Of a DNA stretch of 64,000 nt, positions 19,984-57,831 are shown piece by piece. The DNA comes from a plasmid: the sequence record NZ_CP064874.1; one strand, written 5' to 3'. The position numbers were made by a program, and so were the translations under genes. Each line of letters starts with the position of its first letter. Positions within the stretch are counted from its first letter, which is position 1. Below the pieces are notes generated by a model, which worked only from the letters and a program-made list of their open reading frames with translations, ran no database searches and had not been told where the DNA came from.

Positions 19984-21495
19984 TGTGCGTCAGGATGGGG
20001 TGAGACACCAGCACTGCTGACCTTCGCACTGCACGGGGCGAGAACGGACCAATACTGAGATGACGATGACGGTTGCTGACGTCGGCACCGATGATGGGGC
20101 TATGGCTCCTCGTGCTGACCGGCCCAAGAGGCGGACGTTCACCGCCGAGTTCAAAGCGGCGATCCTGGCCGAGTACGACGCCGCGGACCGCTCTGGGCGT
20201 GGGGAGATCCTGCGCCGGGAGGGCCTGTACACCTCCCACATCATCGAGTGGCGCAAGGCCGCGGCCGCCGGCTCGCTGTCCGGGCTGGGCAGCAAGCCGC
20301 GGGACCGGCGCGAGCGGGAGCTGCAGGCGCTACGGGCCCGGGCGGAGAAGGCCGAGGCCGAGCTGGCCAAGACCAGGGCGGCGCTGGACCTGATGGGAAA
20401 AGCACACGCGCTCTTGGAGACGCTCTCCGAGAGCGCGGACAAGCCGCCGCGGTCGCCGCGGTGATCAACCCGGCCGTCGACGGGCTGGCCGAGCACGTCG
20501 GCACCGCGGCTGCGTGCGCGCTGCTGGGTCGCTCCCGCGCCAGTCACTACCGGGCCAAGAACCCGCCACCGCCACGTCCACGGACACCGCGGCCGGCACC
20601 GGCGAACAAGCTGTCCGCCGCCGAGCGGGCCCACGTGCTGGCCGTGTTGACCAGCCAGCGGTTCGCGGACAAGTCGGTCGCCCAGGTCTGGGCCACGCTG
20701 CTGGACGAGGGCACCTACCTGTGCTCGATGTCCACGATGCACCGGATCCTGCGCGAGCACGACATGGCCGGGGAACGGCGCCGGCAGGCGAGCCACCCGC
20801 CCCGGACCCGGCCCGAGCTCGTCGCGACGGCGCCGGGGCAGGTGTGGAGTTGGGACATCACAAAGCTCAAGGGGCCGGAGCGGGGCGTGTACTACGACCT
20901 GTACGTCGTGCTCGACATCTTCTCCAGGTTCGTCGTGGGCTGGACCATCGCGGCCCGCGAGGACGCCGAGATCGCCAAGAACCTGCTCGAGCACGCCATG
21001 GGCATCCATGGCGTGCCGGAGGCGATCCACGCCGACCGCGGGACCTCGATGACCTCCAAACCGGTCGCTCAGCTGCTCGTCGACCTCGGGGTGGCCAGGT
21101 CGCACTCCCGCCCGCACGTGTCGAACGACAACCCTTACAGCGAGGCGGCGTTCAAGACGCTGAAGTACGCCCCGGTCTTCCCCGAGCGCTTCGGGTCCCT
21201 GGCCGACGCCGGCGCGTTCGCCGAGCAGTTCTTCGCCTACTACAACCACGAGCACCGCCACTGCGGGATCGGGCTGCACACCCCCGCCAGCGTCCACTTC
21301 GGCACCGCCGGGCAGGTCCGCGCCCAGCGCCAGGCCACCCTGGACGCGGCCTACGCCGCCCGTCCCGAGCGCTTCGGCCACCGCCGACCCCAGGCGCCCA
21401 AGCTGCCCGAGGCCGCCTGGATCAACCAGCCCTCACAGGAGGCCCTCATACAGACCGCCTGACGGAATCTGTCTCACCCGCCTTGACACTTTCCG
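19984..21495 (+). mobile_element. IS3-family insertion sequence, copy 1 (identical to copy at 56320-57831)
   Basis: IRs TGTGCGTCAGGATGGGGTGAGACA / TGTCTCACCCGCCTTGACACTTTCC; orfA/orfB with frameshift window near 20455. Confidence 0.85.
20060..21462 (+). CDS. IS3 family transposase OrfAB (OrfA 20060-20464 HTH; OrfB frame 20248-21462 DDE integrase; programmed -1 frameshift)
   Basis: OrfA leucine-zipper/HTH; OrfB WSWDITKL ... DDE motifs (HADRGTSM ... NPYSEAAFKTLK). Confidence 0.85.
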
Positions 21496-21642
21496 GAAGA
21501 CCACGGCCTGCTCACTCGCACCGTCTACCCCGAGGTTCCCGCTCGCGTGGAGTACGAACTTACTGACCTCGGACACAGCGCAGCCGCCCCGTTGAAGCAT
21601 CTGCGCGACTGGGTTGAACACAACGTCGGAACCGACCAGTAG
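21496..21642 (+). pseudogene. HxlR-family transcriptional regulator C-terminal fragment (5' part removed by IS3 copy 1)
   Basis: In-frame from the IS end: ...VYPEVPARVEYELTDLGHSAAAPLKHLRDWVEHN stop; no start codon. Confidence 0.55.
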
Positions 21643-21656
21643 CGACCCCCTCGGCG

Positions 21657-21779
21657 CTACATCGAGCCAGGAGTCCCGGCCTCCGCGTAATACCGCGTCA
21701 ACACAGACGAGGCGTCGCGGTCGCCGTCACCGGACACGACAGAGTTCAGCAGGTACCGGTACCCGTCACCGGTCGTCAT
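21657..21779 (-). pseudogene. orphan MobF/TraA-type relaxase N-terminal fragment (40 codons)
   Basis: MTTGDGYRYLLNSVVSGDGDRDASSVLTRYYAEAGTPGSM stop; matches the conserved N-terminus of actinobacterial MobF relaxases. Confidence 0.5.
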
Positions 21780-22679
21780 CACCCTAATTGATAACGTCAC
21801 ACCTAGAAGGTGCGAAGTAACCGACGCGCGAGCACAGGAGCGCTTCTGTCATTTCGAAGGCGAGACTTCGCGCGATTGGGATTCGCCGGGCCATCCTTCT
21901 TCTCTTTCGTCGAACGTCACCGCAACACCGTGTCGCTGGGGTTCGTGAAATCTTCTTCCGGAAGCGAAACCCAGGTACTGCGCCATGAGGAACTCGCCGC
22001 AGCGATGCACAGGCGTTCGACAGTTCGGTCGCACGAACCGATCGTTTGTTAACGGACGGCACTGTACGTCGATCGAAAGTCGCGCCGACACCCCCTGCGA
22101 ATTCGCGTCGCGGGATAGTTTGCCAGGATCCGGCGATCAGCGTGGTGCGCATCAAGGAGGTGCGCAGCGGCCTCAGCACGAGGAGCCTGCCCGCGAGGCC
22201 GACCACCCCGCCCCTAGGAACGGTAGGAGTGCGACGTCGGGGCGAGCTGGGGGCCACCCCCCGAGACCGAAAGTAGCACCGCAGCGACGATAAGCGCCAC
22301 GCCAACCAGGGTGGTCGTCAGCTCCCCGACCAACGAACCGATCCATCCGCGTTCCTGGAGGTCTCGGAACATCCTTATGCTCAGCCCGAACGTTCCGTTC
22401 GAGCTGCGAACCGATCGTCTCGATGCGTCGTGGCAGACGCCTCAGCTGTCCACCGATGACCTGGAGTTGCACGCGGCCGTCGGCGAACATCTCCCTTGAG
22501 TCCATCGCCAGACGTATGAAATGAGGAGTTCGAGCAAGGGCCCGATCGACCAAGTCGTAGTCGGCAACGAGCTGGCACAGCGTTCCCTCGAGTGACACGA
22601 AGGAAACGACTGGCGTTCTCCTCCGCTGTTGGGGACGTCGGGTCGGCTGAAATAATGGCCGGGACGATACGGTGGCGAG

Positions 22680-23594
22680 TCAGAGCGCCGTGATCCACCG
22701 CGCGATCTCGTCAGCGATCTCGTCGCTATTGTCTTCGACCATCAGCGAGTGGCCGTTCCCAGCGAGAAGAGGCAGTTCGGACGACCAGAAGGTGACGGCG
22801 GCGCCCTGATCGGTGAGCCAGGCCACGATGTCCTGATCCAGCTGCGAGGGGTGGTCGGTATCGGCTCCACCCGTGAAGACGAGAATCGGCTTGTTCGTGA
22901 ACGCGTCGGTCGGCCCGATCCTCATTTGGCTCCCACCGATGTTCTGACGCTGATAAAGCATCCGGGCCGGGATCGGCCGAAGGGTGCGGCGGAACACCTC
23001 GATGCACTCGCGGGGGAACCGCCGGCTGGGTCCGATGGCCTTGTCGTTCACGAAGGCGCTTGTGGGTTCCCAGAAACCCATCTTCGGGATGGTCCAGTCG
23101 ATGGCCGCTCCACGGATGGAGACCTCCTGGTCGGACTCCCTCACGATCTCGGGCACCGCCTGTATATTTCCAGGCGGGCCCGGAGCGACGGCTACGAGCC
23201 CGTCGATGAGATCGCCATGCGTCTCTAGGAGGCGGAAGCCAATCGGACCTGCCATCGAGTGCACGACCAGCACGACGTTCCGGCCGAGACCAGAGAGGAA
23301 CACGCCCATCCCTCGGCACACGCTCTCATAGTCCAGCCGCGCAGACGCCGCACGATCATCGACGTGTTGGGCCGCCTCATAGGACAACCCCAGCCAGTCC
23401 ACCACCAGCACACCGTAGCCATGCGATACGAATCGTGCCGCCCAGCCCTGTCGGCCGTCGGGCGTCTCGAGATAGTACTCGTTCGAGGCACCACCCCCGT
23501 GCACGAGGACGATCCACCGAGCAGGCGCACCCGACGGCGCCAGTTCGGTGTACGAGATCGGCGCGACGTCGTCTGGGCGTGAAATCGAATCCAT
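22680..23594 (-). CDS. alpha/beta hydrolase
   Basis: ORF 22680..23618; HSMAGP nucleophile elbow, LVHGGG oxyanion region. Confidence 0.7.
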   Translation of the reverse strand: MDSISRPDDVAPISYTELAPSGAPARWIVLVHGGGASNEYYLETPDGRQGWAARFVSHGYGVLVVDWLGLSYEAAQHVDDRAASARLDYESVCRGMGVFLSGLGRNVVLVVHSMAGPIGFRLLETHGDLIDGLVAVAPGPPGNIQAVPEIVRESDQEVSIRGAAIDWTIPKMGFWEPTSAFVNDKAIGPSRRFPRECIEVFRRTLRPIPARMLYQRQNIGGSQMRIGPTDAFTNKPILVFTGGADTDHPSQLDQDIVAWLTDQGAAVTFWSSELPLLAGNGHSLMVEDNSDEIADEIARWITAL

Positions 23595-23610
23595 AGCTTC
23601 CCCAGGCCTG

Positions 23611-24333
23611 TTAGGCAATGACGGCGTCGAGGGCCCGTGCGAGCCTCTCCGGATGCGTGAGCATCACCAAATGGCTTCCGTCGATCTCGATCGTGCGCGG
23701 ACTATCAAGCCGCCCGGCCGCGGCCTGGTAGATCTCAGCGGGAACGGCCTGGTCCTGAGCGAGGAACACATAACTTGACGGGATGCTGCTCGCCCAGAAC
23801 CGGTCGAGGCGGATCGGCTCATCGGACCAGCCTGCCGGCGCTGGGACGAGCCTCGGCTCGAGCGCGGCGAGCTGCTGCTGCTCGAACGGGGACATGTCCT
23901 GCATAGACGCGGCCCAGAGCTCAGGCGGCATGACGATGGTGTTGTCGTCGGACTGACTCGCAAGCGCCTTCGTCGCTGCGACCAACGGATCGGGGAGCAC
24001 GTCGTTAATGGTCTCGCCGTCGCGCAGCACCCAGGCGTCGACGAAGACGACCCGGCCGATGCGCTCGGGCATCGCCTCAGCGACGAGTTGGATGAGCGGA
24101 CCTCCGCCGCTATGACCGACGAGCACGATGTCGAGCTGGGTGAGCTCTCTTACCTGATCGATCAGATCGCGCGCCATCATGCTCATCGTGACGCCGGAGC
24201 GGTCCACGTCACCGTCTTCGAGACCGCGCAGCGTCGGCGCGATCACCTCGTGCCCCATTCTGCGCAATTCGTCGGCGACGCCGTCCCACACCCAGCCGCC
24301 TACCCATCCGCCGTGCACCAGTACGATCTGCAT
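23611..24333 (-). CDS. alpha/beta hydrolase (esterase-like)
   Basis: VLVHGGWVGGWVW ... LVGHSGGG motifs; 8-bp overlap with downstream hydrolase. Confidence 0.7.
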   Translation of the reverse strand: MQIVLVHGGWVGGWVWDGVADELRRMGHEVIAPTLRGLEDGDVDRSGVTMSMMARDLIDQVRELTQLDIVLVGHSGGGPLIQLVAEAMPERIGRVVFVDAWVLRDGETINDVLPDPLVAATKALASQSDDNTIVMPPELWAASMQDMSPFEQQQLAALEPRLVPAPAGWSDEPIRLDRFWASSIPSSYVFLAQDQAVPAEIYQAAAGRLDSPRTIEIDGSHLVMLTHPERLARALDAVIA

Positions 24334-24494
24334 TGATCATCCTCTTCGCATATTTATCTGCTGAGCAGAACTTGTTCCTAACTAGAAGACACAATAGCTT
24401 GCGCGGCGCCAACAGTCCAGCATGGCTCGAGCTCTCTTCAGAACGCGCCGAACGACCCCTGCACCAGGTCGCAGGGGAAAGAGACGACGAGCCT

Positions 24495-24880
24495 TCAGGA
24501 GGTCAGGTCGGCCAGACGTACGGCTGCCTCATCGAGGAGTGCGACGAGGGTCTTCACCTTGCGGGGAGGCAAGCGGAACACCGGGGCAGATGCGTTGATC
24601 GCCAACCGCAGCCCGCTCGCCGAGGGAACGGCCACGGCCACCGAGGCCACGCCCTCCTCGCTCTCCTCCCGGTTCGTTGCATAGCCCTGCTTCGCGACAA
24701 GATCCAGTTGTGCGAGGAGCTCGGTCTTGGTACGGATCGACTGCGGAGTCACCTGTGAGAGTTGCTCGTCGGGGTAGAGACGGTCCAATTGTTCTCGCGG
24801 GAGCTGCGCCAGGAGAACCTTTCCCGTGGAGGTGCAATGGGCCGGCATCTCCTTGCCCAACCGTGAAGCGACTCGCACCG
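24495..24880 (-). pseudogene. IclR-family regulator C-terminal effector-domain fragment (N-terminal HTH missing)
   Basis: GKVLLAQLPREQLDRLYPDEQLSQVTPQSIRTKTELLAQLDLVAKQGYATNREESEEGVASVAV is the IclR C-domain; the upstream in-frame sequence is not HTH-like. Confidence 0.5.
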
Positions 24881-24889
24881 CCGTCGTCG

Positions 24890-25275
24890 GTTCCGCGACC
24901 GGGGTCGTGCCCGACGTGAACCAGATCCAGCTCAGCCCCGACATCGCCCGTACCGTTCCTCGACGCGCGCACGAGGTGCTCGGTATCGTGACCGAGAGCT
25001 GGAGCCCGCTCGGCCGCGGGCCCGAGCTGCGGGAGAACCCGACGATCGTGCAGATCGCGGCGGACGTCGGACGAACGGCGGCACAGGTGGTGCTCCGCTG
25101 GCACGTGCAGCAGGGCCTCGTGCCGGTGCCGAGATCGTCAGACCCCAAACGCCTGGTCGAGAACCTCTCGGTCTTCGACTTCCGCCTTAGCACCGACCAG
25201 ATGGCCACGCTTGCGTCCCTCGACAACGGCGAAGCCGCCGCGCGGGACTCTGACCTGCCCGAGAACGGTCATTAG
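24890..25275 (+). pseudogene. aldo/keto reductase C-terminal fragment (N-terminal half missing)
   Basis: PDVNQIQLSP...SWSPLGRG...TAAQVVLRWHVQQGLVPVPRSSDPKRLVENLSVFDFRLS matches the AKR C-terminus; the fragment abuts the IclR fragment. Confidence 0.55.
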
Positions 25276-25312
25276 TCCACCAAGAACACCAAAATCGTCA
25301 CCGATCTGGTAA

Positions 25313-25504
<192 letters not shown>

Positions 25505-25679
25505 TGATGGCTCGAACGTAGGCGCGATCTGCCTTGCTCGCCTCACCTTCGGCTCGCTCGACAGCCGCGTCCAAACCATCGCGAAGTCGCGTGCACTGCA
25601 GATGGCGGCGAGGGAGAGAGTAAGTTCTGCAGTGTGCCCGATCGGGAACAGGGGGTGGGCTTTAGTACCCCTGCCCGAA

Positions 25680-26114
25680 TTCGCGAAGTCTGGGCCACAG
25701 ATCGCCGCCGACGACGCCGAAGACCCCTACGTCCGCCAGCATGCCGCCGAAGCCCTGCTTGAGATCAACGAAGACCGGAAAGTCAACGGCCGCTACCTCG
25801 CCGTCAAGACCCGACAGAACCTCGCCCGCCTCACCGACTTCGCCGAACACACCCGTCGGTTTCCCTGCCTCTTCCGCCTCGATCAACGCCACCTGTGCAC
25901 CCCTATCAGCGGGAGCGAGGGTCTCGGGAAGCTTCTCAAGCCGACGGGCAACTCGCTCGGCAGTGCTTGCGAATCGGCGGTACGGACGACCCAACTGTTC
26001 GCTCGTGTTGGGGTCCTGGCCGTGCCCCATGAGACGGCGGAGCTGCTCCTCGCTGACCTCACCACCGGGTTCGACGGCGCCAGAAATGTACGCGAGACCC
26101 GATCCGAGCCATGA
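25680..26114 (+). CDS. hypothetical protein, possible HEAT-like repeat (low confidence)
   Basis: Part of ORF 25461..26114 with high GC3; DPYVRQHAAEALLEIN resembles a HEAT/PBS-lyase repeat; the start is uncertain. Confidence 0.25.
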   Translation, partial: FAKSGPQIAADDAEDPYVRQHAAEALLEINEDRKVNGRYLAVKTRQNLARLTDFAEHTRRFPCLFRLDQRHLCTPISGSEGLGKLLKPTGNSLGSACESAVRTTQLFARVGVLAVPHETAELLLADLTTGFDGARNVRETRSEP

Positions 26115-26131
26115 GCCCGGCGGCGTGCTGT

Positions 26132-26449
26132 TCAGTCGTTCAGCCGGTGGAGCCAGTAGCCGGGTTCGCGGCGCTCGTGGGCGTAGGCGAGGATCAGGAT
26201 CGTGTCCGGCTCCACCGTGTAGACGATGCGGTACGGGTATCCGCGAACGGCCTTGCTGCGGATCACGGTGCCATCGTCAGCGGTCGTGAATGGTGGGGCG
26301 GCGTTCGGCCATTGGTCGAGGTCTTTCCGGGCTTGCCTTGCTCGGTCGATGAGCGCAAGGCCGATCCCTGGCTCCTGGTCTTCGTACCAGCGCACGGTGG
26401 CGTCGAACTCCGCGACGGCCTCGGGGTGCTCTCGCTGGGCCAAGGTCAT
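26132..26449 (-). CDS. type II toxin, RelE/ParE family
   Basis: 105 aa; C-terminal YRIVYTVEPDTILILAYAHERREP typical of ParE/RelE; 4-bp overlap with the upstream antitoxin gene. Confidence 0.65.
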   Translation of the reverse strand: MTLAQREHPEAVAEFDATVRWYEDQEPGIGLALIDRARQARKDLDQWPNAAPPFTTADDGTVIRSKAVRGYPYRIVYTVEPDTILILAYAHERREPGYWLHRLND

Positions 26450-26682
26450 GCGGTGAGCAAGGCGCGCAAACGCTCGTAGTGCTCGTCGGCATCCACCAGA
26501 TCGACCGCACCCTCACGCACCTCGGCCAGTCGCCGGGTAGCCTCGGCACGCCAGGCTGCATCGACCTCGCTCTCGTCGTCTGCATCATGGAGGCTTTCGA
26601 GCAGGGCGTTAGCGACGACCGCGCGCTGATCGGCGTCGAGCGCGAGGCCGTCTCGGATCAGAGTTGCGGTGTCGGGTGTCAT
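26446..26682 (-). CDS. putative addiction-module antitoxin
   Basis: ORF 26446..26712 trimmed to MTPDTATLI; small acidic protein upstream of and overlapping the toxin gene. Confidence 0.5.
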   Translation of the reverse strand: MTPDTATLIRDGLALDADQRAVVANALLESLHDADDESEVDAAWRAEATRRLAEVREGAVDLVDADEHYERLRALLTA

Positions 26683-26785
26683 GTATTCAAGTGTACGTCG
26701 AACGGCCGACAATCGCGCTGGGCGTCTGTGGCTCGGGTTGCGGGGCTGCTGTGAACGTCACGCCGACGCGACGTGCTGCTGATGC

Positions 26786-30241: not shown

Positions 30242-30251
30242 TCTGGCCTCC

Positions 30252-30271
30252 CTCACGAGTCGTCTCGTGAG
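30252..30271 (-). promoter_or_regulatory. hairpin CTCACGAG-TCGT-CTCGTGAG just upstream of the relaxase RBS; candidate oriT/nic-region or regulatory structure
   Basis: 8-bp perfect inverted repeat 11 bp from GTG start; MobF oriT sites typically lie upstream of the relaxase gene. Confidence 0.3.
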
Positions 30272-30468
30272 AGAGGTGCGCACTACGGCCCCGCCGTAAA
30301 ATACGTGCCTCACTGAGATAGGGGGCAGATGACTGATGGAGCCGAGCGTCAGCGCGAGAGCGTCGCACAGAGTGTCGCTGGCAAGAGTTGGCGTCACAAA
30401 GTTCGAGGGAACTTTCGGAGTTCGGTTCGATGAAGTGACTAGTCTTCTCGGCGAACTTCGTGACCTGA

Positions 30469-31230: not shown

Positions 31231-31232
31231 CA

Positions 31233-48145: not shown

Positions 48146-48199
48146 GAACTGCTCCGTTCGAGGAGATGTAGATACGAGACATTATTGTTCACGGGCTGA

Positions 48200-49105: not shown

Positions 49106-49123
49106 GGTGTGTGTTCCTTCCGA

Positions 49124-49954
49124 TCAGACCGCGGTGGCGGCGGGGTCGATGATCACGGCGGTGAGACGCTCGAGCTCGGTGGGGGTGAGTCCGTGGGCGA
49201 GGAGGTAGGCGCTGATCGACCCGTGCTCGCGGTCGATGCGCTCGAGCAGCGCCTCGAGCACCTCGGCGGGGCTCTCGGTGATGAGTTCGACCATTCCCGC
49301 GGTCAGTTCGATGCCGCGCTGTTCGAAGACGGCGGTCATCGCGTCTGACCACTCGCCGCGCAGGTTCTCGGCGGTGGCGGCGTAGTCGGCCACGACGTCG
49401 TCGCGGTCGACCCCGGCGGCGGCGAGCGCGAAGGCCACGACGAGACCGGTGCGGTCTTTGCCGGCGGTGCAGTGCACGAGCACCGCGTCGTCGTCGTCAG
49501 CCGCGATGATCACCCGGATCGCGTCGACCAGCTGCGCCCCGCGCTCGTCGACGATGTGGTCGTAGACGGGCACGAGTCCGACGTGCGTGGTGGCCTGCGC
49601 GGCCGGGTCGGCGTCGTCGAACACGGGCAGGTGGTGCACGGTGACCTCGAGCCCGTCGACCGCGCTCGGCGCTGTGGCGCGCTCGTCGCCGCCGCGCAGG
49701 TCGATGATGTGGGCGACGCCGATCTCGGCCAGCCGGTCGCGACCGGTCGCGTCGATGCGGTGCAGAGCATCTGACCGCAGCAGCTTGCCCCACCGGCTGG
49801 TGCCGCCGGCTGCACGGTAGCCGCCGGTGTCGCGCAGGTTGTAGAGGCCGGCCACGGCGTGGCGACGCTCACGAGGCGCCGCGGTCGCGGCATCCGGCGA
49901 CGAAGCGGCCGCGGCATCCGTCGCCGAAGGCGTCAGGTCGAGGTCGATGGTCAT
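49124..49954 (-). CDS. protein tyrosine/serine phosphatase
   Basis: ORF 49124..50092 trimmed to MTIDLDL; HCTAGKDRTG CX5R active site. Confidence 0.7.
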   Translation of the reverse strand: MTIDLDLTPSATDAAAASSPDAATAAPRERRHAVAGLYNLRDTGGYRAAGGTSRWGKLLRSDALHRIDATGRDRLAEIGVAHIIDLRGGDERATAPSAVDGLEVTVHHLPVFDDADPAAQATTHVGLVPVYDHIVDERGAQLVDAIRVIIAADDDDAVLVHCTAGKDRTGLVVAFALAAAGVDRDDVVADYAATAENLRGEWSDAMTAVFEQRGIELTAGMVELITESPAEVLEALLERIDREHGSISAYLLAHGLTPTELERLTAVIIDPAATAV

Positions 49955-50784
49955 TCGATCAGCCCCTGCGCGCGCTCGGCGGCCTCGGTCATAGTGGCGG
50001 CCGGGTCGGCGCCGTAGAAGACCGCGTCTTCGATGGCGGTGGCGAGCACCTGGTCGACCTGGGCGTAGCTGTCGCCGGGGTACGACACCCACGGCTCGAG
50101 CGCGTCGAGCTGCTCGAGGTTGGGCTTCACGAGCGGGTTGGCTTCGACCCAGTCATAGAGCGGTCCGCCCTCGTCGGCCATGCTGCTGCGCAGCGGTAGG
50201 TACCCGATCTGGGTCGAGATGATCTCGTAGGCGCGGGGGCTGGTCATGAACTGCATGAGCTCCCACGCGGCGGCCTGCTTGGCGGGGTCGGTGGCGAACA
50301 TCGCGAGGAACGAGCCCGAGTTGGTGGGCACGACCGCCTGGTCTCCGAACGCGGGCAGGGTGTGAGCGTCGAGGGTCCAGCCACCGGCCTCGGCGCCCAT
50401 CATGAACGCGCCCTGCAGGGCCGAGCTGTTGACGTGGATCGCGGTCTTCCCCTGCGCGAACGCCTCGTACTGGCTGGTGAAGTCCTCGTTGGTGAGCACG
50501 CCGTCCTCGTACATCTCGGTGAAGGTCGCGACCGTATCGATCGCGGCGTCCGAGCCGAACTCGATCGTCGTGCGGTCATCGCTCAGCACCTGGGCGCCGT
50601 TCGAGAGGAAGAGGCCCTGCATGCACCAGCTGCCGCCGGTGATCACGCACGACGCGCTCATCGAGGGGGCACCGGTGGACTCGGTGATCTGCGCGGCGGC
50701 GTCTTCGATGATCAGGTCGATATCACTGACGGCGGCGGTGCTCTTGAAGGAGCGACCGACACCAGAGAGCTGGATCGTTCCCAT
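49951..50784 (-). pseudogene. ABC sugar-type substrate-binding protein fragment (no signal peptide or N-domain)
   Basis: 277 aa resembling the C-terminal lobe of family-1 SBPs; too short and lacks a lipobox. Confidence 0.35.
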
Positions 50785-50886
50785 GAGTCGCCTTCTGCAA
50801 GCGACCTGACGAACCGGGGCCTTCCCGCGAAATCCGCTTGCAGAGCTATTGCAATCGAGGAAAGTGAATTTCCTGCAAACGGAGTG

Positions 50887-51806
50887 TCAACGCCCATCGC
50901 CGTGGTCGATAACGTCTGGCACGTCGGATGCCTCGGCGTCGGAGCCGTCGTCGGCGACGATGTCGAGCACCTCTTCGCGCACCGCGAGGCGCGCGCGGTC
51001 GGCGGCGTCGCTCATGCGGTCGGCGACGGCGATCTGCAGGGCGTTGAGCACGAGCAGCTGTACGAGCCCGCTGCCGAGAATGCCTTGACCCCACGCCTGG
51101 AAGCGCGCACCGGCGACGAGCAGGTGGTCGGCGCGGGTGGTGAGCGGGGTACGGGCGAAGCTCGTGACCCCGATCACGGTGGCGCCGGCGTCGACGGCGG
51201 CGTCCGCAACCGCGAGGGTCACCGAGTTGGCGCCACTCGAGCTGACGATGAGGCACACATCACCGGGGGCGAGCACGCGGGCGGTGAGGTGGGCGACCAC
51301 GCCGTCAGCGGGCGCTTCGCAGGGCCGGCCGTTGACGGCGAACGCGACGGCCGACGCCTGGGCGGCGGCGTGCGAGGCGCCGGTGCCCGAGATCAGCAGG
51401 CGCGGCGCGCGGGCGATGGCGTCGGCAGCGGCGTCGAACGCGACCGGGTCGATCGAGGCGAGCGCGGTCTGCAGCATCCCACCCGCCCCTCGGCCAGCCA
51501 CCGCAGAAAGCCCTCGGTGCCGGCGGGTGCGTCGGGCGCGGCGGTGGCGTCGGCGGCGAGGTCACGCACGAGCAGCATGCGCAGGTGCTGAAAGCTGCGC
51601 AGCCCCAGCGCCTGGGCGGTGCGGCTGACGGTGGCCGGCGACGTGTTGGCGGCTTCGGCGAGGTCGGCGCCCGACATGTCGACCACGTCGTGGGGTCGCT
51701 CGGCGCAGATGCGGGCGACGCGCTGCGCGCTCGGTACGAGCGACGGCAGGATCGAGAGGATGTGGTCGATGGTTCCGCCGAGCGGCGGCTCGTTGAGGGG
51801 CGAGTT
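50887..51806 (-). pseudogene. MurR/RpiR-family regulator disrupted by a frameshift (HTH_6 domain in ORF 51393..51878, SIS domain in ORF 50887..51501)
   Basis: HTH block SAQRVARICAERPHDVVDMSGADLAEAANTSPATVSR and SIS block LLISGTGASHAAAQ lie in different frames, switching near 51480-51500. Confidence 0.55.
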
Positions 51807-52791
51807 CATGTAGCCGGTGATCACCTTTCGGGTTCGCCGCACATCGTATGGGCGCAATGCGACCACGACCCCAACCATAGGTGAACGCAGCGTTCATCGC
51901 CTCCGCTATCCGCGAAAGGCAATTTCATGACCTCCCTGCGTCCGCTCGAGCTCCCGAACAGTGCCATGCCCGCAAGGAAGTCGGCCAAGGGTGACTCGAC
52001 CGAAGACGCCCACCTCGAGCGCCGCGATGGCGCCTACGATGACCGTCCGTGCGAGCCAGAGCCACGTGATCTGTCGATCCCGGCGGTCAAGCGCTCGAAC
52101 GTTCCGCACGTCGATGTTCCGCTGGCGGGGGCGCCGGGGCAGCAGACACCGGTAACCAACGACGCGAAGAAGCCTGCCACGACGATGACGCCCGCAGCGC
52201 GGAACCAGAGGGCGGGGGCGACGCGCGAAACTGATCCTGCTCATGGCCCGATCAGACCGATGGCCACTCAGACGTGAAAGGGGAGACATCGCGCCCGGGC
52301 CGAACCGTCGCACGCTGACGTCCCCTCACCGCGCAGTGCCCGCAAGGGGATGGTAGATGGGCGAGCAGTTCTGGGACTCTGGTCGACGATTCTTCAGCTC
52401 GCCTGTGGAAGTCCCTGGGACAACGCCTGTCGGATTCTCCAAACAGGAAAACCGCTGAGCTGCGCAATCAAGTCCACATCGAACTCGTGCTCGAAGTAGG
52501 CCACCCGCACCGCCCGGATGCGCGACGGATTGTCACCGAAAGCCAGTGTGAACTCGGTGGCGTAGCGCTCCCAGACGCTGAACTCATACCCCGGTGCCGT
52601 CACGATGCATTCACCTCATCCCGGGTGCAACTCTCAGGAGTGGTCGCGGTGCTAATGCGATGCTACGACACCCGTGTTAACGCCAGGACACAAGGAGATT
52701 CCGGGAAAGCTCGCTACGCACGGTGTGCACCGATACGGGGATGGCCCGCCCGGGGTGCATGGTTCACACCGGGGTGACCAAGGGAATTGGG

Positions 52792-54251
52792 GGCTCTTCG
52801 GACATGCGGTGGGGGTGAGGCTCGCCGGGTGATGGTCGGCGGGTAGGGGTCGAGGTCCCCGAGGATCAGTAGCGCCAACTGCTGATCCATCACGAGGACC
52901 TCGACGTGCTTCACCCTACTTCGGGGTGCGCTGACGCGCGCTCTGCCGCTGATCCGTGTTACCGCTGCGATCTGCTGGTCGGTCTCGACGGCGTCCATGT
53001 CGAGCACGTTGACCGCCGCGACGGGCTGCTGATCGTCACCGTTTCGACACCGGCGGCGCCGACCGGGTGCCCGTTGTGCGGGGTCGTGGCGATCGGTCGA
53101 GGGCGCCGCCGTCGAGTGTTGCATGACGTGCCGGGCGTGACGCGGGTGCGGATCGTCTGGCGGCAACGGGTCTGGCGATGCGGCGACGTGGGCTGTGCCA
53201 AGAAGACGTTCGTGGAGCAGCTTCCCTCGCTGGTCGCTCGGCGCGGGTCGCTCACAAGGCGAGCCGTCGACTGGGCGATCGGGCAGCTGCGCCGCGAGCA
53301 CGCCACGATCGAAGGACTACGTCGTCAGCTCGGGACATCGTGGAAGACGGTGTGGCGGGCTGTTGAGCCTGAACTGGTGCGGTTGGCAGCCGACGAGTCC
53401 CGGTTCGAGAACGTGACCACGCTCGGCGTCGACGAGCACATCTGGCATCACGTCGACCACCGCAAGCGGGGCTCGAAGGAACTGACCGGCATGGTCGACC
53501 TCAGCCGCGACAGCACCGGGAAGACGCGGGCCAGGCTGCTCGACCTCGTGCCGGGCAGATCGGGGAAGGCATACGCGTCCTGGCTCAGCGAGCGGGGCGA
53601 AGCGTTCCGAAAGAACGTGAAGGTGGCGGCGCTGGACCCGTTCGCGGGCTACAAGACTGCGATCGATGACACGCTCGAAGACGCGGTCGCTGTGCTGGAC
53701 GCGTTCCATGTCGTCAAGCTCGGCACCGCCGCCGTCGACGAGGTCCGCCGCCGCGTCCAGCAAGACACCCTCGGGCATCGCGGTCGGAAGGGCGACCCGC
53801 TCTACGGGATTCAGACCATCCTCCGTGCCGGGGCCGAGAACCTCACCGACAAGCAGCGGATCCGGCTGACCGCGGCAATCGAGGCCGATCCTGCGCACGA
53901 CGAGGTGTTCGTCGCGTGGCAGTGCGCACAGCAGCTGCGCTCTGCCTACCACGCGAAGGACCTGACCGAGGGGCGGCGGATCGCCGAGAGGGTGGTCGAC
54001 ACGTTCCACACCTGCCCGATCCCCGAGATCGCCCGCCTCGGCCGCACCCTCCGCCGCTGGCGTTCAGCGTTCCTGGCGTACTTCACCACGAGCCGCGCGA
54101 ACAACGGCGGCACCGAGGCGATCAACGGGATCATCGAGCTCCACCGCCGCCTCGCCCGCGGCTATCGCAACCGCGAGAACTACCGCCTCCGCATGCTCCT
54201 CACCGCCGGCGGACTCACCCCATGACCCCCCCACCGGATGTCCGAAGAGCC
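52792..54251 (+). mobile_element. ISL3-family insertion sequence, copy 2
   Basis: Same terminal IRs as copy 1; transposase 52906..54225 about 90 percent identical to copy 1. Confidence 0.8.
52906..54225 (+). CDS. ISL3 family transposase
   Basis: 439 aa, collinear with 31779..33098. Confidence 0.85.
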   Translation: MLHPTSGCADARSAADPCYRCDLLVGLDGVHVEHVDRRDGLLIVTVSTPAAPTGCPLCGVVAIGRGRRRRVLHDVPGVTRVRIVWRQRVWRCGDVGCAKKTFVEQLPSLVARRGSLTRRAVDWAIGQLRREHATIEGLRRQLGTSWKTVWRAVEPELVRLAADESRFENVTTLGVDEHIWHHVDHRKRGSKELTGMVDLSRDSTGKTRARLLDLVPGRSGKAYASWLSERGEAFRKNVKVAALDPFAGYKTAIDDTLEDAVAVLDAFHVVKLGTAAVDEVRRRVQQDTLGHRGRKGDPLYGIQTILRAGAENLTDKQRIRLTAAIEADPAHDEVFVAWQCAQQLRSAYHAKDLTEGRRIAERVVDTFHTCPIPEIARLGRTLRRWRSAFLAYFTTSRANNGGTEAINGIIELHRRLARGYRNRENYRLRMLLTAGGLTP

Positions 54252-54320
54252 AGTTAAGTGATATTGAGCCGGGAATGCCCATAAACGGCGTTCCCGGTTC
54301 ATGGACGTTCGGAAGTAGTA

Positions 54321-55193
54321 ATGGTGAGCAACGGAACCCTGGAAACGCAGTATCAGGATCGTGGGACTCTGACGGCGCGAATACGAGCACTTCGCCCATC
54401 CATGTCGCAAACGCAAGCGGCCGTGGCCAACGTTGTGTTGACGAACCCTGCCGGTGTATTGCACATGACGGTGAGTGAACTCGCGAGGGTGTCGCGCAGC
54501 TCCGTGGGGAGCGTGGTCCGGTTCTGCCAAGATCTGGGCCTCAAGGGGTATCAAGAATTCAAATTGCAGTTGGCCTCTGAAATTCCAGTTGGCGAAGAAT
54601 CCGGTGTCAGCCATACGGAAACGTCCGGGTCAATCGTGTCTGAAGTATTTCAATCGACGGCACGCGCTATTTCGGAAGGCGAAGCAAGTATTGATCCGAA
54701 CGAATTTCAACGTGCGGTGTCCGTGCTTGATAAGGCAGATCGGATTCTTCTGGTGGCTAGTGGCCAGTCCTCGCCAATTGCCCTTGATACTGCCCTCCGT
54801 TTCCGCAGCGTGGGGCTCGAGGTGAATCATCCGGGAGATCCGGTATCGCAACATATCGCATCCTCGATGCTGGGCCCGGGCGACGCTTGCCTGGCAATCA
54901 GCCACACCGGCCGCACCAAAGCAACGGTCGCGGCCGCGGAATCGGCGCGAGAGTCAGGGGCGGCGGTCGTTTCGGTGACCAGCTTCTATCGCTCCCCGCT
55001 GGTGGCCGCATCCACCGTGGCACTCGTTGCCGGATCAGGTGAGACGCGGTTTCAAATCGAGGCCATGATGAGCCGGTTTGTGCATCTCGCGGTGCTGGAT
55101 GCACTCTATTCTGCGATCACCGCCGAAAACCCCGAGCGCACCCTCAAGGGAGCGGCGCGGGCTGCGCAGGCTGAGGAAATGTTCCGCGACTGA
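54321..55193 (+). CDS. MurR/RpiR family transcriptional regulator (intact), in a lower-GC islet
   Basis: N-terminal HTH_6 plus SIS domain (LLVASGQSSPIALD). Confidence 0.75.
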   Translation: MVSNGTLETQYQDRGTLTARIRALRPSMSQTQAAVANVVLTNPAGVLHMTVSELARVSRSSVGSVVRFCQDLGLKGYQEFKLQLASEIPVGEESGVSHTETSGSIVSEVFQSTARAISEGEASIDPNEFQRAVSVLDKADRILLVASGQSSPIALDTALRFRSVGLEVNHPGDPVSQHIASSMLGPGDACLAISHTGRTKATVAAAESARESGAAVVSVTSFYRSPLVAASTVALVAGSGETRFQIEAMMSRFVHLAVLDALYSAITAENPERTLKGAARAAQAEEMFRD

Positions 55194-55268
55194 TCATTTG
55201 ATAGTTCAACAACACGGCCCGGGCCCTCCTGGAGGAGAGAGGACCCGGGCCGTAGCTTTTGGTTCGAA

Positions 55269-56150
55269 TTATGCCCAGGCCGTCGGCTTGTCCAGCGCGT
55301 TCAGTTCAATCTCGGCGAGGACTCCGTAGTGGTCGCTTGCCGTCGGATACTCGTTGAACACAACCTTGCTCGAGTTGATGACACTCTCGACCGTGAGGTG
55401 GTTTACCGTCGAGCCGGCGAGTACATAATCGATGCGGCGGTGGTGGGGTTCCTGCACCACGTAGTTCGGAACAATTCCCTGACCGTCGGTCACGCTTCGG
55501 GCGACCCACGGGCTATCGGTGGTCCAGGTGTAGCCGGGGCCACCGTCTCCGGCAATTGCCCAGGTGTCGCGGAAGGCGGCGCTGCGGCCGTTGATGGCTG
55601 ATTTGCCGGTGTAGAACCGCATGCAGTCCTGGTCGGGAGCGGCGTCAAAGTCGCCCGCAATAATCGTGGGGGCCTCTTGACGGCGCTTTTCTTCAAGTTC
55701 AGTGACGAACAGCGCCTGCTCCACACGAGCGGCCTCGTCGGTGAAATTGAAGCTCGGGCGCGGGCCGAGGAAGAGCATGTCCACGCCGATGGGCAGTGAC
55801 AGCACGGCTTCCCATACATAGGGTCCGTCGGCTGCGGGAAGCTTGTGGGTGGTAATGCTCTTGGGTTCCCAGCGCGTACCAACGGCGGTTCCCCAGGCGG
55901 GCCACTCGAAGTCAGCGAAGTCGGATGCGTGGCGAGCGAAGTCGGATGCGTGGTGCCAGTGGAGGCTCGAGTTTTCCTTTACGAGCTGGAAGGCATCGCG
56001 CTCCGGGGTGCGGACGACTTCCTGCAGGAAGACAATGTCGGCGTCGTGCTCTTCGAGGCCTTTAAGTAGGAGCGCGTCGCGCTTTTGCTGATCGCGGGGG
56101 GCGAGCCAAATGTTCAGTGTCAGTACCCGTAGGTTCATTTTTTTGTTCAT
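55269..56150 (-). CDS. endonuclease/exonuclease/phosphatase (EEP) family protein; 21-bp in-frame tandem duplication at 55915-55956
   Basis: LTLNIW...DIVFLQEV...IIAGDFDA...SDHYGVLAEI EEP motifs; duplicated HASDFAR/HASDFAD. Confidence 0.7.
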   Translation of the reverse strand: MNKKMNLRVLTLNIWLAPRDQQKRDALLLKGLEEHDADIVFLQEVVRTPERDAFQLVKENSSLHWHHASDFARHASDFADFEWPAWGTAVGTRWEPKSITTHKLPAADGPYVWEAVLSLPIGVDMLFLGPRPSFNFTDEAARVEQALFVTELEEKRRQEAPTIIAGDFDAAPDQDCMRFYTGKSAINGRSAAFRDTWAIAGDGGPGYTWTTDSPWVARSVTDGQGIVPNYVVQEPHHRRIDYVLAGSTVNHLTVESVINSSKVVFNEYPTASDHYGVLAEIELNALDKPTAWA

Positions 56151-56234
56151 GCGGGAAAGCTATGCCGCCAAAGTGAACAAGGTTCCAAAAAAGAGTTAAC
56201 TTGCGGAACTAATTTTTCCCGTCGAGTCGTCAGC

Positions 56235-56319
56235 GCTTGGGGAAGGCGTCGAAATCAATGTCGAGTTCGACCTGGTCGGCGCGGAAGCGGGTGTTTGAAT
56301 ACTGCAGTGGCCGGCCCCC
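56235..56319 (-). pseudogene. 3' gene fragment (about 28 codons, ...VELDIDFDAFPKR-stop) cut by IS3 copy 2
   Basis: In-frame coding tail ending at stop 56235 abutting the IS3 left IR; no upstream continuation. Confidence 0.3.
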
Positions 56320-57831
56320 TGTGCGTCAGGATGGGGTGAGACACCAGCACTGCTGACCTTCGCACTGCACGGGGCGAGAACGGACCAATACTGAGATGAC
56401 GATGACGGTTGCTGACGTCGGCACCGATGATGGGGCTATGGCTCCTCGTGCTGACCGGCCCAAGAGGCGGACGTTCACCGCCGAGTTCAAAGCGGCGATC
56501 CTGGCCGAGTACGACGCCGCGGACCGCTCTGGGCGTGGGGAGATCCTGCGCCGGGAGGGCCTGTACACCTCCCACATCATCGAGTGGCGCAAGGCCGCGG
56601 CCGCCGGCTCGCTGTCCGGGCTGGGCAGCAAGCCGCGGGACCGGCGCGAGCGGGAGCTGCAGGCGCTACGGGCCCGGGCGGAGAAGGCCGAGGCCGAGCT
56701 GGCCAAGACCAGGGCGGCGCTGGACCTGATGGGAAAAGCACACGCGCTCTTGGAGACGCTCTCCGAGAGCGCGGACAAGCCGCCGCGGTCGCCGCGGTGA
56801 TCAACCCGGCCGTCGACGGGCTGGCCGAGCACGTCGGCACCGCGGCTGCGTGCGCGCTGCTGGGTCGCTCCCGCGCCAGTCACTACCGGGCCAAGAACCC
56901 GCCACCGCCACGTCCACGGACACCGCGGCCGGCACCGGCGAACAAGCTGTCCGCCGCCGAGCGGGCCCACGTGCTGGCCGTGTTGACCAGCCAGCGGTTC
57001 GCGGACAAGTCGGTCGCCCAGGTCTGGGCCACGCTGCTGGACGAGGGCACCTACCTGTGCTCGATGTCCACGATGCACCGGATCCTGCGCGAGCACGACA
57101 TGGCCGGGGAACGGCGCCGGCAGGCGAGCCACCCGCCCCGGACCCGGCCCGAGCTCGTCGCGACGGCGCCGGGGCAGGTGTGGAGTTGGGACATCACAAA
57201 GCTCAAGGGGCCGGAGCGGGGCGTGTACTACGACCTGTACGTCGTGCTCGACATCTTCTCCAGGTTCGTCGTGGGCTGGACCATCGCGGCCCGCGAGGAC
57301 GCCGAGATCGCCAAGAACCTGCTCGAGCACGCCATGGGCATCCATGGCGTGCCGGAGGCGATCCACGCCGACCGCGGGACCTCGATGACCTCCAAACCGG
57401 TCGCTCAGCTGCTCGTCGACCTCGGGGTGGCCAGGTCGCACTCCCGCCCGCACGTGTCGAACGACAACCCTTACAGCGAGGCGGCGTTCAAGACGCTGAA
57501 GTACGCCCCGGTCTTCCCCGAGCGCTTCGGGTCCCTGGCCGACGCCGGCGCGTTCGCCGAGCAGTTCTTCGCCTACTACAACCACGAGCACCGCCACTGC
57601 GGGATCGGGCTGCACACCCCCGCCAGCGTCCACTTCGGCACCGCCGGGCAGGTCCGCGCCCAGCGCCAGGCCACCCTGGACGCGGCCTACGCCGCCCGTC
57701 CCGAGCGCTTCGGCCACCGCCGACCCCAGGCGCCCAAGCTGCCCGAGGCCGCCTGGATCAACCAGCCCTCACAGGAGGCCCTCATACAGACCGCCTGACG
57801 GAATCTGTCTCACCCGCCTTGACACTTTCCG
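56320..57831 (+). mobile_element. IS3-family insertion sequence, copy 2 (identical to copy 1)
   Basis: Identical OrfA/OrfB translations and ends to 19984-21495. Confidence 0.85.
56396..57798 (+). CDS. IS3 family transposase OrfAB (frameshifted)
   Basis: Identical to 20060..21462. Confidence 0.85.

What the first reader, a model, noticed from the sequence alone, without database searches (positions are those of the whole stretch)
19984..57831. Nested IS pairs create potential composite transposons or recombination substrates: identical IS3 copies bracket 35 kb; ISL3 and IS5 pairs nest inside
The two IS3-family copies (19984-21495 and 56320-57831) are identical along their entire length and lie in direct orientation. 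This means recent transposition or gene conversion, and makes the intervening 35 kb (relaxase, TA systems, resistance-like genes) deletable or mobilisable by homologous recombination. Inside are two ISL3 copies (about 90 percent identity) bracketing 19.7 kb and two IS5-group copies bracketing 11 kb, all in direct orientation. None shows clean target-site duplications, consistent with later rearrangements. Truncated host genes abut several ends: the HxlR fragment, the PuuE-like deacetylase, the ABC permease, JetB and the AraC fragment.
Basis: seen in the sequence. Interest (0 to 1): 0.6.

Follow-up and report, generated by a model that had tools for sequence, protein, structure and literature searches.

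The report
IS-stitched mosaic region on actinobacterial plasmid
Two identical insertion sequences do bracket about 35 kb of plasmid DNA, but this is an ordinary patchwork of pieces from other bacteria's plasmids joined at insertion sequences, not a transposon that moved as one unit.

Summary
Two 1,515-bp IS3-family copies (19981-21495 and 56317-57831) are 100% identical, both on the + strand, and enclose 34,821 bp. An ISL3 pair and two IS5-family elements are nested inside.

Corrections:
- The IS3 left ends lie 3 bp further left than reported.
- The ISL3 copies are 86-87% identical, not 90%.
- The "IS5 pair" is two different elements (1,311 and 964 bp, about 68% identical).
- No AraC fragment was found. 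A gntR remnant abuts IS3 copy 2.

Intact copies of this IS3 in other genomes carry 3-bp target duplications. Neither window copy does, nor does the pair taken as a unit. The four IS3 junctions cut four unrelated sequences. Three of them recur separately in other genomes with different partners on the far side of the IS. The enclosed DNA is a mosaic, 99.5-99.9% identical to segments of Rhodococcus, Gordonia and Microbacterium plasmids.

The structure was therefore most likely assembled by recombination or rearrangement at IS copies, not by composite transposition. The identical IS3 pair remains a plausible substrate for deletion or excision, which I did not test. This is a known kind of structure and of low interest.

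The parts
18492..19910 (-). IS256-family element (transposase 18551-19786). Not listed in the finding. No target duplication.
   Evidence: NCBIfam IS256 369 bits. 100% identical to two copies on the M. sediminis plasmid and to L043 and L050. Flanks shown.
19911..19980 (.). 70-bp orphan between IS256 and IS3 copy 1, origin unknown. The IS256-orphan-IS3 arrangement recurs in two metagenome contigs.
   Evidence: L043 matches window 18492-21495 and L028 matches 19864-21495, both at 100%. Each has a different sequence to the right of the IS3.
19981..21495 (+). IS3-family copy 1, 1,515 bp. orfA is 20060-20464. A candidate -1 slippery heptamer G GGA AAA lies at 20395-20401. orfB runs to 21462. No target duplication (left flank ..GCC, right flank GAA..).
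21496..21642 (+). hxlR' remnant (codons 69 to the end), cut by the right end of IS3 copy 1.
   Evidence: Pfam HxlR, profile positions 44-88 of 91. The uninterrupted gene is in Rhodococcus pNAPH at L004 3933-4283. The same IS3|GAAGACC junction occurs in L006, L012 and L023.
21496..31108 (.). Rhodococcus-plasmid module: two alpha/beta hydrolases (22680-23594 and 23611-24333, - strand), iclR', an internal deletion joint at about 24894-24899, aldo/keto reductase', ParE toxin (26132-26449) and antitoxin, MobF relaxase (26786-30586, - strand), TetR.
   Evidence: 99.5-99.97% identical to pNAPH in two pieces. 99.9% and contiguous in Rhodococcus sp. LW-XY12 pLW1. Pfam and NCBIfam.
31109..31664 (-). Wadjet remnant: first 124 nt of jetC plus the 3' 435 nt of jetB, cut by the left end of ISL3-A.
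   Evidence: DUF4194 hit at 1.2e-15. 100% identical to L016, which carries jetA-jetB-jetC' and continues uninterrupted past the ISL3-A insertion point.
31665..33122 (+). ISL3-family copy A, 1,458 bp (transposase 31779-33098). 25-bp perfect terminal inverted repeats GGCTCTTCGGACATTCGGTGGGGGT. No 8-bp duplication.
33157..34467 (-). IS5-family element #1, 1,311 bp, with its transposase split into two frames.
   Evidence: NCBIfam IS5_3. 99.8% identical to M. sediminis plasmid 92019-93329. Inverted repeats shown.
35782..45105 (.). Integrative module shared with Gordonia and Microbacterium plasmids: ABC-F ribosomal-protection-like protein (38605-40245), Tet(V)-like MFS transporter (40242-41507), hypothetical protein, HTH regulator, tyrosine recombinase (43773-44990, - strand), ending inside a glutaredoxin/nrdH-like gene.
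   Evidence: 99.8% identical to pGOR1, a G. sihwensis plasmid and an M. proteolyticum plasmid. NCBIfam.
35863..38286 (-). IS481-family element carrying cmx as a passenger gene (transposase 35858-36853, Cmx/CmrA 36856-38139). It is flanked by the 6-bp duplication GCTAGC.
   Evidence: NCBIfam IS481 299 bits and cmx_cmrA 482 bits, both above cut-off. pGOR1 has the uninterrupted site. Inverted repeats match at 18 of 25 positions.
45354..46317 (-). IS5-family element #2, 964 bp, with 21/22 terminal inverted repeats. It abuts a 5'-truncated ABC permease (46342-46956).
   Evidence: Joining the two flanks does not restore the permease reading frame.
48193..52791 (-). Phosphoesterase, tyrosine phosphatase, solute-binding protein' and RpiR/SIS cluster, next to ISL3-B. 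It is inverted relative to the M. sediminis plasmid and has a 1.7-kb internal deletion.
   Evidence: 99.4-99.9% identical to M. sediminis plasmid 70720-77015. Pfam.
52792..54251 (+). ISL3-family copy B, 1,460 bp (transposase 52906-54225). No 8-bp duplication.
   Evidence: Both of its flanks are the same in contigs L052, L053 and L055.
54252..56316 (.). RpiR/SIS regulator (54321-55193, + strand), endonuclease/exonuclease/phosphatase-family protein (55269-56150, - strand) and the last 29 codons of a gntR gene (56230-56316, - strand), cut by the left end of IS3 copy 2.
   Evidence: Pfam. Contigs L048-L051, L053 and L054 continue uninterrupted into gntR and, in most of them, a phnGHIJ cluster exactly where the window has the IS3.
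56317..57831 (+). IS3-family copy 2, identical to copy 1. No target duplication (left flank ..GCC, right flank CTT..).
57832..59886 (+). PuuE-like deacetylase lacking its N-terminus (57890-58693), isochorismatase-family amidohydrolase, SDR'. This is the right outer flank of the IS3 pair.
   Evidence: Together with the IS3, contiguous at 99.86% with M. sediminis plasmid 109143-112711. The same IS3|CTTCGATT junction occurs in L009. NCBIfam PuuE profile positions 72-294 of 297.
60526..60535 (.). Empty site for an ISL3-bounded 10.7-kb unit that is present in the M. sediminis plasmid.
   Evidence: M. sediminis 69260-79986 is flanked by the 8-bp duplication GGATAACC. The window has that sequence once.

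Best explanation
This is the accessory region of an actinobacterial, Microbacterium-type plasmid. It was built up piece by piece, with joints at insertion sequences.

The two IS3-family copies are intact, canonical elements: orfA/orfB, a candidate -1 frameshift site, a DDE domain, and 3-bp duplications where they have simply inserted in other genomes. In this window neither copy sits where it first inserted. Each of the four IS3 junctions truncates a different, unrelated sequence. The junctions were therefore created by separate insertion events in separate places. They were later brought together by recombination between IS3 copies on different DNA molecules or segments (homologous recombination or cointegrate formation), and possibly by IS-mediated adjacent deletions.

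The result is a 34.8-kb mosaic between two identical direct repeats. It contains a Rhodococcus-plasmid module, a Wadjet remnant, a Gordonia-type integrative resistance module with an IS481-cmx insertion, and a phosphoester-utilisation cluster.

Shown here: the anatomy, the absence of duplications, the empty sites, and the re-use of junctions.

Inferred: the recombination route. Also inferred: RecA-type recombination between the 1,515-bp repeats could now delete the segment. That would release a 36,336-bp circle carrying one IS3, the MobF relaxase, the ParE system and the resistance and hydrolase genes. It could equally amplify or re-insert the segment at another IS3 copy.
For: - Identity and orientation of the pair.
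- IS ends and 3-bp duplications in simple insertions elsewhere: L008 (CGG) and L018 (CAT); L046 (AAA).
- No duplication on either window copy or across the pair.
- Empty sites: hxlR and the Rieske-gene site are uninterrupted in pNAPH; gntR is uninterrupted in L048, L050, L051 and L053 by direct sequence inspection, and L049 and L054 match up to the same position. In no case is the missing half on the other side of the same IS or of the pair.
- Junction re-use: IS256-70bp-IS3 occurs in L028 and L043 with two other right flanks. IS3|hxlR' occurs in L006, L012 and L023. IS3|deacetylase' occurs in the M. sediminis plasmid and L009 with two other left flanks.
- Mosaic cargo at 99.5-99.9% identity to plasmids of different genera, with sharp breakpoints at or near IS ends.
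- ISL3-A's left flank continues uninterrupted in L016, while its right flank in the window is unrelated.
- Plasmid context: backbone at 87% identity to a Microbacterium sp. YJN-G plasmid, MobF relaxase, AbiE backbone shared with the M. sediminis plasmid.
Against: - No sequence was found that represents either the precursor or the deletion product (IS256-70bp-IS3-deacetylase' with a single IS3). The predicted excision or deletion is therefore untested.
- Homologous recombination cannot be told apart from transposase-driven rearrangement (adjacent deletion, cointegration) using sequence alone, because all copies are identical and leave no conversion tracts.
- The left junction of copy 2 (gntR'|IS3) was not seen in any other assembly.
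- The source genome and its reads are not available, so the co-occurrence of both copies on one molecule rests on the assembly as given.
Confidence: 0.78

Rival explanations
1. Transposase-driven intramolecular events produced the unmatched flanks, rather than homologous recombination between copies. These would be IS3 adjacent deletions or inversions, or IS3-mediated cointegration followed by incomplete resolution. This is a variant of the main explanation, not an alternative to the mosaic reading.
For: Every flank is a truncated gene, and one flank per copy could have been replaced by an adjacent deletion. ISL3-A also has one original flank and one foreign flank. The IS3 reading frames and ends are intact.
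Against: The same junctions recur in several genera with different partners. That is most simply explained by exchange between copies on different molecules. Adjacent deletion requires both flanks to have been on one molecule beforehand.
Confidence: 0.2
2. The IS3-34.8 kb-IS3 segment is a genuine composite transposon that inserted here as one unit. The duplication was later lost.
For: Two intact, identical, directly oriented copies with intact outer ends. A smaller 7,461-bp segment bracketed by the same IS at both contig ends exists in L006 and L023. ISL3 ends did move a 10.7-kb unit with an 8-bp duplication in the M. sediminis plasmid.
Against: No duplication (GCC vs CTT). The outer flanks are unrelated and each recurs independently with other partners. 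The unit is not found anywhere else in PLSDB, the GTDB representative genomes or the metagenome contigs.
Confidence: 0.05
3. Assembly artefact: one IS3 copy was duplicated, or modules from different replicons were joined wrongly across collapsed IS repeats.
For: Identical 1.5-kb repeats are classic causes of misassembly. In short-read assemblies this IS forms its own 1,515-bp contig (L007, L010, L017, L022). The gntR'|IS3 junction is unique to the window.
Against: Three of the four junctions are seen independently in other assemblies. The window runs uninterrupted through several repeated IS, as a long-read or finished assembly would. Segment 50700-56316 is contiguous in L053.
Confidence: 0.05

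Closest known systems
IS3-family insertion sequences (copy-out-paste-in elements such as IS911, IS3, IS150)
   Same: The length of 1.5 kb. orfA has a weak HTH_Tnp_1 match and orfB has an rve DDE domain in the -1 frame. A G GGA AAA heptamer lies in the correct register. Simple insertions in other genomes give 3-bp duplications. The NCBIfam IS3 model scores above its cut-off.
   Different: The usual TG...CA termini are not at the very ends. They lie 3 and 7 nt inside, and the inverted repeats are imperfect and gapped. In this window neither copy retains a duplication. I could not obtain an ISfinder name.
Classical composite (compound) transposons such as Tn10 or Tn5
   Same: Two copies of one IS bracket cargo that includes resistance genes.
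   Different: No duplication around the unit. The outer flanks are not a single interrupted site. The unit is not seen elsewhere. The interior is itself a mosaic containing four further IS.
IS26-type pseudo-compound transposons and translocatable units (PMC7986276, PMC7885326)
   Same: The pattern matches: identical IS copies in direct orientation, cargo segments between them, no duplications, and the same IS-cargo junctions re-used in different contexts.
   Different: The IS here belongs to the IS3 family, not IS6/IS26. The transposase-dependent targeted conservative reaction is documented for IS26-family members only. Ordinary homologous recombination explains the pattern here without it.
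IS-rich mosaic accessory regions of actinobacterial catabolic and resistance plasmids (for example Rhodococcus pNAPH, Gordonia pGOR1, the M. sediminis YLB-01 plasmid)
   Same: Whole modules are shared at 99.5-100% identity, as are the same IS256, IS3, IS5 and ISL3 elements.
   Different: This particular order of modules is in none of the 72,556 PLSDB records. No record covers 80% or more of any 24-kb query.

Membership tests
IS3 family | DDE (rve) transposase matching the curated family model | tested here: met
   NCBIfam transpos_IS3 181.8 bits against a cut-off of 160. Pfam rve 1e-20 on the modelled OrfAB protein.
IS3 family | Two overlapping reading frames with orfB in the -1 frame and a slippery heptamer | tested here: met
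   orfA is 20060-20464 and orfB is in the -1 frame. G GGA AAA at 20395-20401 is in zero-frame register. Frameshifting itself was not demonstrated.
IS3 family | 3-4 bp target-site duplication | tested here: met
   Met for simple insertions of the same IS elsewhere: CGG (L008), CAT (L018), AAA (L046). Absent on both window copies.
IS3 family | Terminal inverted repeats ending 5'-TG...CA-3' | tested here: inconclusive
   TG and CA are present but lie 3 and 7 nt inside the ends defined by the flanks. The inverted repeats are imperfect with gaps.
Composite transposon (IS3 pair) | One target duplication flanking the whole unit | tested here: not met
   The left outer flank ends ..GCC and the right outer flank starts CTT...
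Composite transposon (IS3 pair) | Outer flanks are two halves of one interrupted site | tested here: not met
   The left flank is IS256 plus a 70-bp orphan, also seen in L028 and L043 with other right flanks. The right flank is the truncated deacetylase, also seen in the M. sediminis plasmid and L009 with other left flanks.
Composite transposon (IS3 pair) | The same unit found at another location | tested here: not met
   Not found in PLSDB, the GTDB representative genomes or the metagenome contigs.
IS26-like pseudo-compound transposon | IS of the IS6/IS26 family with a targeted conservative reaction | tested here: not met
   The transposase is IS3-family. The reaction itself cannot be tested with these tools.
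ISL3 family | Family transposase model, long terminal inverted repeats and an 8-bp duplication | tested here: met
   NCBIfam 286 and 268 bits against a cut-off of 180. 25-bp perfect inverted repeats. The 8-bp duplication GGATAACC is seen for the ISL3-bounded unit in the M. sediminis plasmid. It is absent on both window copies.
IS5 family | Family transposase model and terminal inverted repeats; the two elements being copies of one IS | tested here: inconclusive
   Both elements match transpos_IS5_3 and have inverted repeats. They are 1,311 vs 964 bp and about 68% identical, so they are not the same IS. A TA dinucleotide straddles each end, which may or may not be a 2-bp duplication.
IS481 family (element carrying cmx) | Family transposase model, TGT...ACA ends and a 6-bp duplication at an NCTAGN-type site | tested here: met
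   NCBIfam 299 bits against a cut-off of 224. TGT/ACA ends, GCTAGC duplicated, and pGOR1 has the uninterrupted site. The NCTAGN target preference is recalled from memory.

The most novel reading that the evidence does not exclude
This IS3-family element can use another copy of itself as a target and form cointegrates conservatively, as IS26 does. That would generate directly oriented arrays without target duplications and move 'IS plus adjacent DNA' units between actinobacterial plasmids. It would account for two observations: six of the nine full-length copies with both flanks visible lack a duplication (though several of these share a junction and are not independent events), and single junctions recur with many partners.
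Probability: 0.05. Interest if true: 0.6.

Novelty: new member of a known kind. Interest (0 to 1): 0.2.

Why it matters
The region is a clear, well-documented example of a familiar process. A handful of IS elements, one of them sequence-identical across at least four actinobacterial genera and near-identical in a fifth, stitch together modules from Rhodococcus, Gordonia and Microbacterium plasmids. Those modules carry candidate ester hydrolases, a relaxase, cmx, an ABC-F protein and a Tet(V)-like pump.

That is useful for tracing gene flow among environmental actinobacteria and for annotating this plasmid. It adds no new mechanism. The practical consequence is that the 35-kb segment is probably unstable, and that short-read assemblies of relatives will break at these IS.

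Tried and rejected
- Source or sister contigs: I looked up three window proteins by exact sequence (34466-35017, 35081-35770, 46979-48145). None was on record.
- The 70-bp orphan: I tested whether it and the L028 or L043 right flanks are two halves of one gene. The L028 flank is an IS110-type transposase N-terminus, but the joined reading frame was not convincing and the alignment was uninformative. The orphan's origin remains open.
- IS5 #2: I tested whether it is a simple insertion in the ABC permease by joining its flanks. No permease N-terminus was restored.
- AraC fragment: I looked at every IS end with Pfam and six-frame translations and found none.
- Literature: searches on the comparator strains, on the M. 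sediminis plasmid and on phthalate esterases (DpeH/MpeH) found no description of this region or of the IS.
- Identity as evidence of recent intra-replicon duplication: rejected, because the IS is identical or nearly so in most assemblies that carry it.

Full report
**Observation**

A self-comparison of the window finds one long perfect repeat, 19975-21495 against 56310-57831. Direct comparison shows that 19981-21495 and 56317-57831 are identical over 1,515 bp. Both copies are on the + strand, 36,336 bp apart start to start. They enclose 34,821 bp.

The extra few bases of similarity to the left are a chance resemblance between the flanks (GCCG-CC against GCCGGCC).

The second repeat is the ISL3 pair, 31665-33126 against 52792-54255 at 86.7% identity. 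From their terminal inverted repeats the elements are 31665-33122 and 52792-54251. Global identity is 86.3% at nucleotide level and 88.9% at protein level, and the longest identical run is 59 bp.

The two IS5-family elements share only short 78% patches. Their inverted repeats define 33157-34467 (1,311 bp) and 45354-46317 (964 bp), which are about 68% identical overall. NCBIfam confirms the IS3, ISL3 and IS5 family assignments.

The ISL3 identity was overstated, and the IS5 "pair" is two different elements.

**The IS3 element**

The same 1,515-bp sequence turns up in many other assemblies. It is 100% identical in Microbacterium spp., Microcella alkalica, Tersicoccus mangrovi and a Streptosporangium, 99.9% identical in Pseudoclavibacter, and 100% identical in about twenty metagenome contigs. 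It is also on the Microbacterium sediminis YLB-01 plasmid. In several draft genomes it assembles as a contig of exactly 1,515 bp.

Three full copies elsewhere are simple insertions with 3-bp duplications immediately outside these ends:
- CGG in L008.
- CAT in L018.
- AAA in L046.

Internally the element has these features:
- orfA at 20060-20464.
- orfB in the -1 frame, running to 21462.
- A G GGA AAA heptamer in the correct register at 20395-20401.
- An rve DDE domain.

It is a canonical and apparently functional IS3-family element. Because copies are identical in most assemblies that carry them, the identity of the two window copies says nothing about a recent event within this replicon.

**The four IS3 junctions**

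None carries a duplication, and there is none across the pair. Each junction is considered in turn.

- Copy 1, left. The flank is a 70-bp orphan preceded by an IS256. This IS256-70bp-IS3 arrangement is also in metagenome contigs L043 and L028, each with a different sequence to the right of the IS3.
- Copy 1, right. The flank is hxlR cut at codon 69. The uninterrupted gene is in Rhodococcus pNAPH. The identical IS3|hxlR' junction is in Microbacterium sp. 5K110 (L006), Microcella (L023) and Tersicoccus (L012). In L006 and L023 a 7,461-bp stretch from hxlR' to a Rieske dioxygenase gene is bracketed by IS3 ends at both contig ends. Both of those sites are uninterrupted in pNAPH.
- Copy 2, left. 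The flank is the last 29 codons of a gntR gene. Contigs L048-L051, L053 and L054 all match up to exactly window 56316; L048, L050, L051 and L053, inspected directly, continue into the rest of gntR, and most of these contigs carry a phn cluster beyond it.
- Copy 2, right. The flank is a PuuE-like deacetylase lacking about 70 N-terminal residues. The IS3-deacetylase-amidohydrolase-SDR' stretch is contiguous at 99.86% with M. sediminis plasmid 109143-112711. The junction is also in a Streptosporangium contig, L009. In both cases the left flank differs from the window's.

So four unrelated sequences abut the two copies. The missing halves are not on the other side of the same IS or of the pair. 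Three of the four junctions exist independently elsewhere with other partners.

**The cargo is a mosaic**

| Window | Content | Closest match |
|---|---|---|
| 21496-31108 | Two alpha/beta hydrolases, iclR', aldo/keto reductase', ParE toxin and antitoxin, MobF relaxase, TetR | 99.5-99.97% to Rhodococcus pNAPH; contiguous in Rhodococcus sp. LW-XY12 pLW1, including the same internal deletion joint near 24899 |
| 31109-31664 | jetC'/jetB' Wadjet remnant | 100% to L016 |
| 35782-45105 | ABC-F protein, Tet(V)-like MFS pump, tyrosine recombinase | 99.8% to a module that sits next to a glutaredoxin gene in Gordonia pGOR1, a G. sihwensis plasmid and an M. proteolyticum plasmid |
| 48193-54256 | Phosphoesterase cluster plus ISL3-B | 99.4-99.9% to M. 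sediminis plasmid 69255-77015, inverted, with a 1.7-kb deletion |
| 50700-56316 | Same cluster through to gntR' | Contiguous in L053 |

Outside the pair, 1-16399 is a Microbacterium plasmid backbone, 87% identical to a plasmid of strain YJN-G. Window 60526-64000 is an AbiE-containing backbone shared with the M. sediminis plasmid. No PLSDB record covers 80% or more of any 24-kb query.

**The other IS elements**

ISL3-A's left flank continues uninterrupted in L016. Its right flank in the window is unrelated, and there is no 8-bp duplication. ISL3-B likewise has none.

ISL3 ends are active in this gene pool, however. In the M. sediminis plasmid a 10,727-bp unit is flanked by the 8-bp duplication GGATAACC. 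The unit consists of ISL3-B, cargo and a 36-bp solo end identical to the right end of ISL3-A. The window has the empty site at 60526-60535.

The IS5 elements each have a TA dinucleotide straddling both ends. This could be a 2-bp duplication, but the evidence is weak. The M. sediminis copy of IS5 #1 shares the flanking A and T. The inverted repeats of IS5 #2 extend 11 nt beyond the TA.

Two IS were not in the finding:
- An IS256 at 18492-19910, which has no duplication.
- A 2,424-bp IS481-family element at 35863-38286. It carries cmx as a passenger, has TGT...ACA ends and a clean GCTAGC duplication, and pGOR1 has the uninterrupted site.

**Interpretation**

The anatomy rules out a simple reading in which the IS3-35 kb-IS3 segment transposed here as a unit.

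The best explanation is stepwise assembly. There were several independent IS3 insertions in different replicons. Exchange between IS3 copies followed, and possibly IS-mediated adjacent deletions as well. This joined modules from different plasmids.

The pattern resembles IS26-type pseudo-compound transposons: direct orientation, no duplications, re-used junctions (PMC7986276, PMC7885326). But the IS here belongs to the IS3 family, and ordinary homologous recombination is sufficient. I give an IS26-like mechanism about 5%.

What the pair can do now is inference from established knowledge of recombination between direct repeats. It could delete the segment, or excise it as a 36,336-bp circle with one IS3. 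No replication gene was recognised in that circle, but it would carry a MobF relaxase. It could also amplify the segment or re-insert it at another IS3 copy. I found no sequence representing the deletion product or the circle.

An assembly artefact cannot be excluded without reads. It is unlikely, because three of the four junctions are independently attested and the window reads through several repeats.

**Verdict**

This is an ordinary, if nicely documented, IS-mediated mosaic on an actinobacterial plasmid: a new instance of a well-known kind, of low interest.

Noticed in passing
window 35863-38286: An IS481-family element carries the chloramphenicol exporter gene cmx as a passenger. It is 2,424 bp with TGT...ACA ends and inverted repeats matching at 18 of 25 positions. 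It is flanked by a clean 6-bp duplication, GCTAGC. Gordonia pGOR1 has the uninterrupted site.
   Followed up: yes
window 60526-60535; M. sediminis plasmid NZ_CP038257.1 69260-79986 (L002): The window holds the empty site for a 10.7-kb ISL3-bounded unit in the M. sediminis plasmid. That unit consists of ISL3-B, cargo and a 36-bp solo ISL3-A-type end, and it inserted with the 8-bp duplication GGATAACC.
   Followed up: yes
window 18492-19910: An IS256-family element, 100% identical to two copies on the M. sediminis plasmid and to copies in L043 and L050. It has no target duplication. It lies 70 bp from IS3 copy 1.
   Followed up: partly
window 31109-31664; L016 657-4956: A remnant of a Wadjet (jetABCD) defence operon: the 5' end of jetC and the 3' part of jetB. 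The jetC' start is fused in frame to the TetR reading frame. In the MAG contig L016 the same operon is cut in jetC by the same IS3.
   Followed up: partly
window 22680-24333: Two adjacent alpha/beta hydrolases lie on DNA 99.5-99.9% identical to plasmids of Rhodococcus pyridinivorans 5Ap (pNAPH), Rhodococcus sp. LW-XY12 and Glutamicibacter sp. ZJUTW. The last two strain names turn up in the phthalate-ester degradation literature, though I did not read those papers to confirm it. They may be phthalate ester hydrolases. Their function and names were not established.
   Followed up: partly
window 38280-45105: The ABC-F, Tet(V)-like MFS and tyrosine recombinase module ends inside a glutaredoxin/nrdH-like gene in three different plasmids. 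This suggests a site-specific integrative element that targets the 3' end of that gene.
   Followed up: partly
L006 (Microbacterium sp. 5K110) and L023 (Microcella alkalica), whole contigs: A 7,461-bp segment runs from hxlR' through two hydrolases, iclR and a dioxygenase cluster to a Rieske gene. It has IS3 ends in the same orientation at both contig ends. It is therefore either an IS3-bounded unit or a circle with one IS3. Both of its end points are uninterrupted in Rhodococcus pNAPH.
   Followed up: partly
L016 (contig labelled Planctomycetota MAG), L039 (TARA contig) and other metagenome contigs: Exact copies of this actinobacterial IS3 appear in metagenome bins of unrelated taxa and in ocean metagenomes. 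That could reflect mis-binning or Microbacterium-type contamination. It was not examined.
   Followed up: no
window 24894-24899: An IS-free deletion joint fuses iclR' to the 3' part of an aldo/keto reductase gene. It is identical to the joint in Rhodococcus sp. LW-XY12 pLW1. pNAPH carries the 8.4 kb that is missing here (a dioxygenase cluster, IS256 and IS110).
   Followed up: partly
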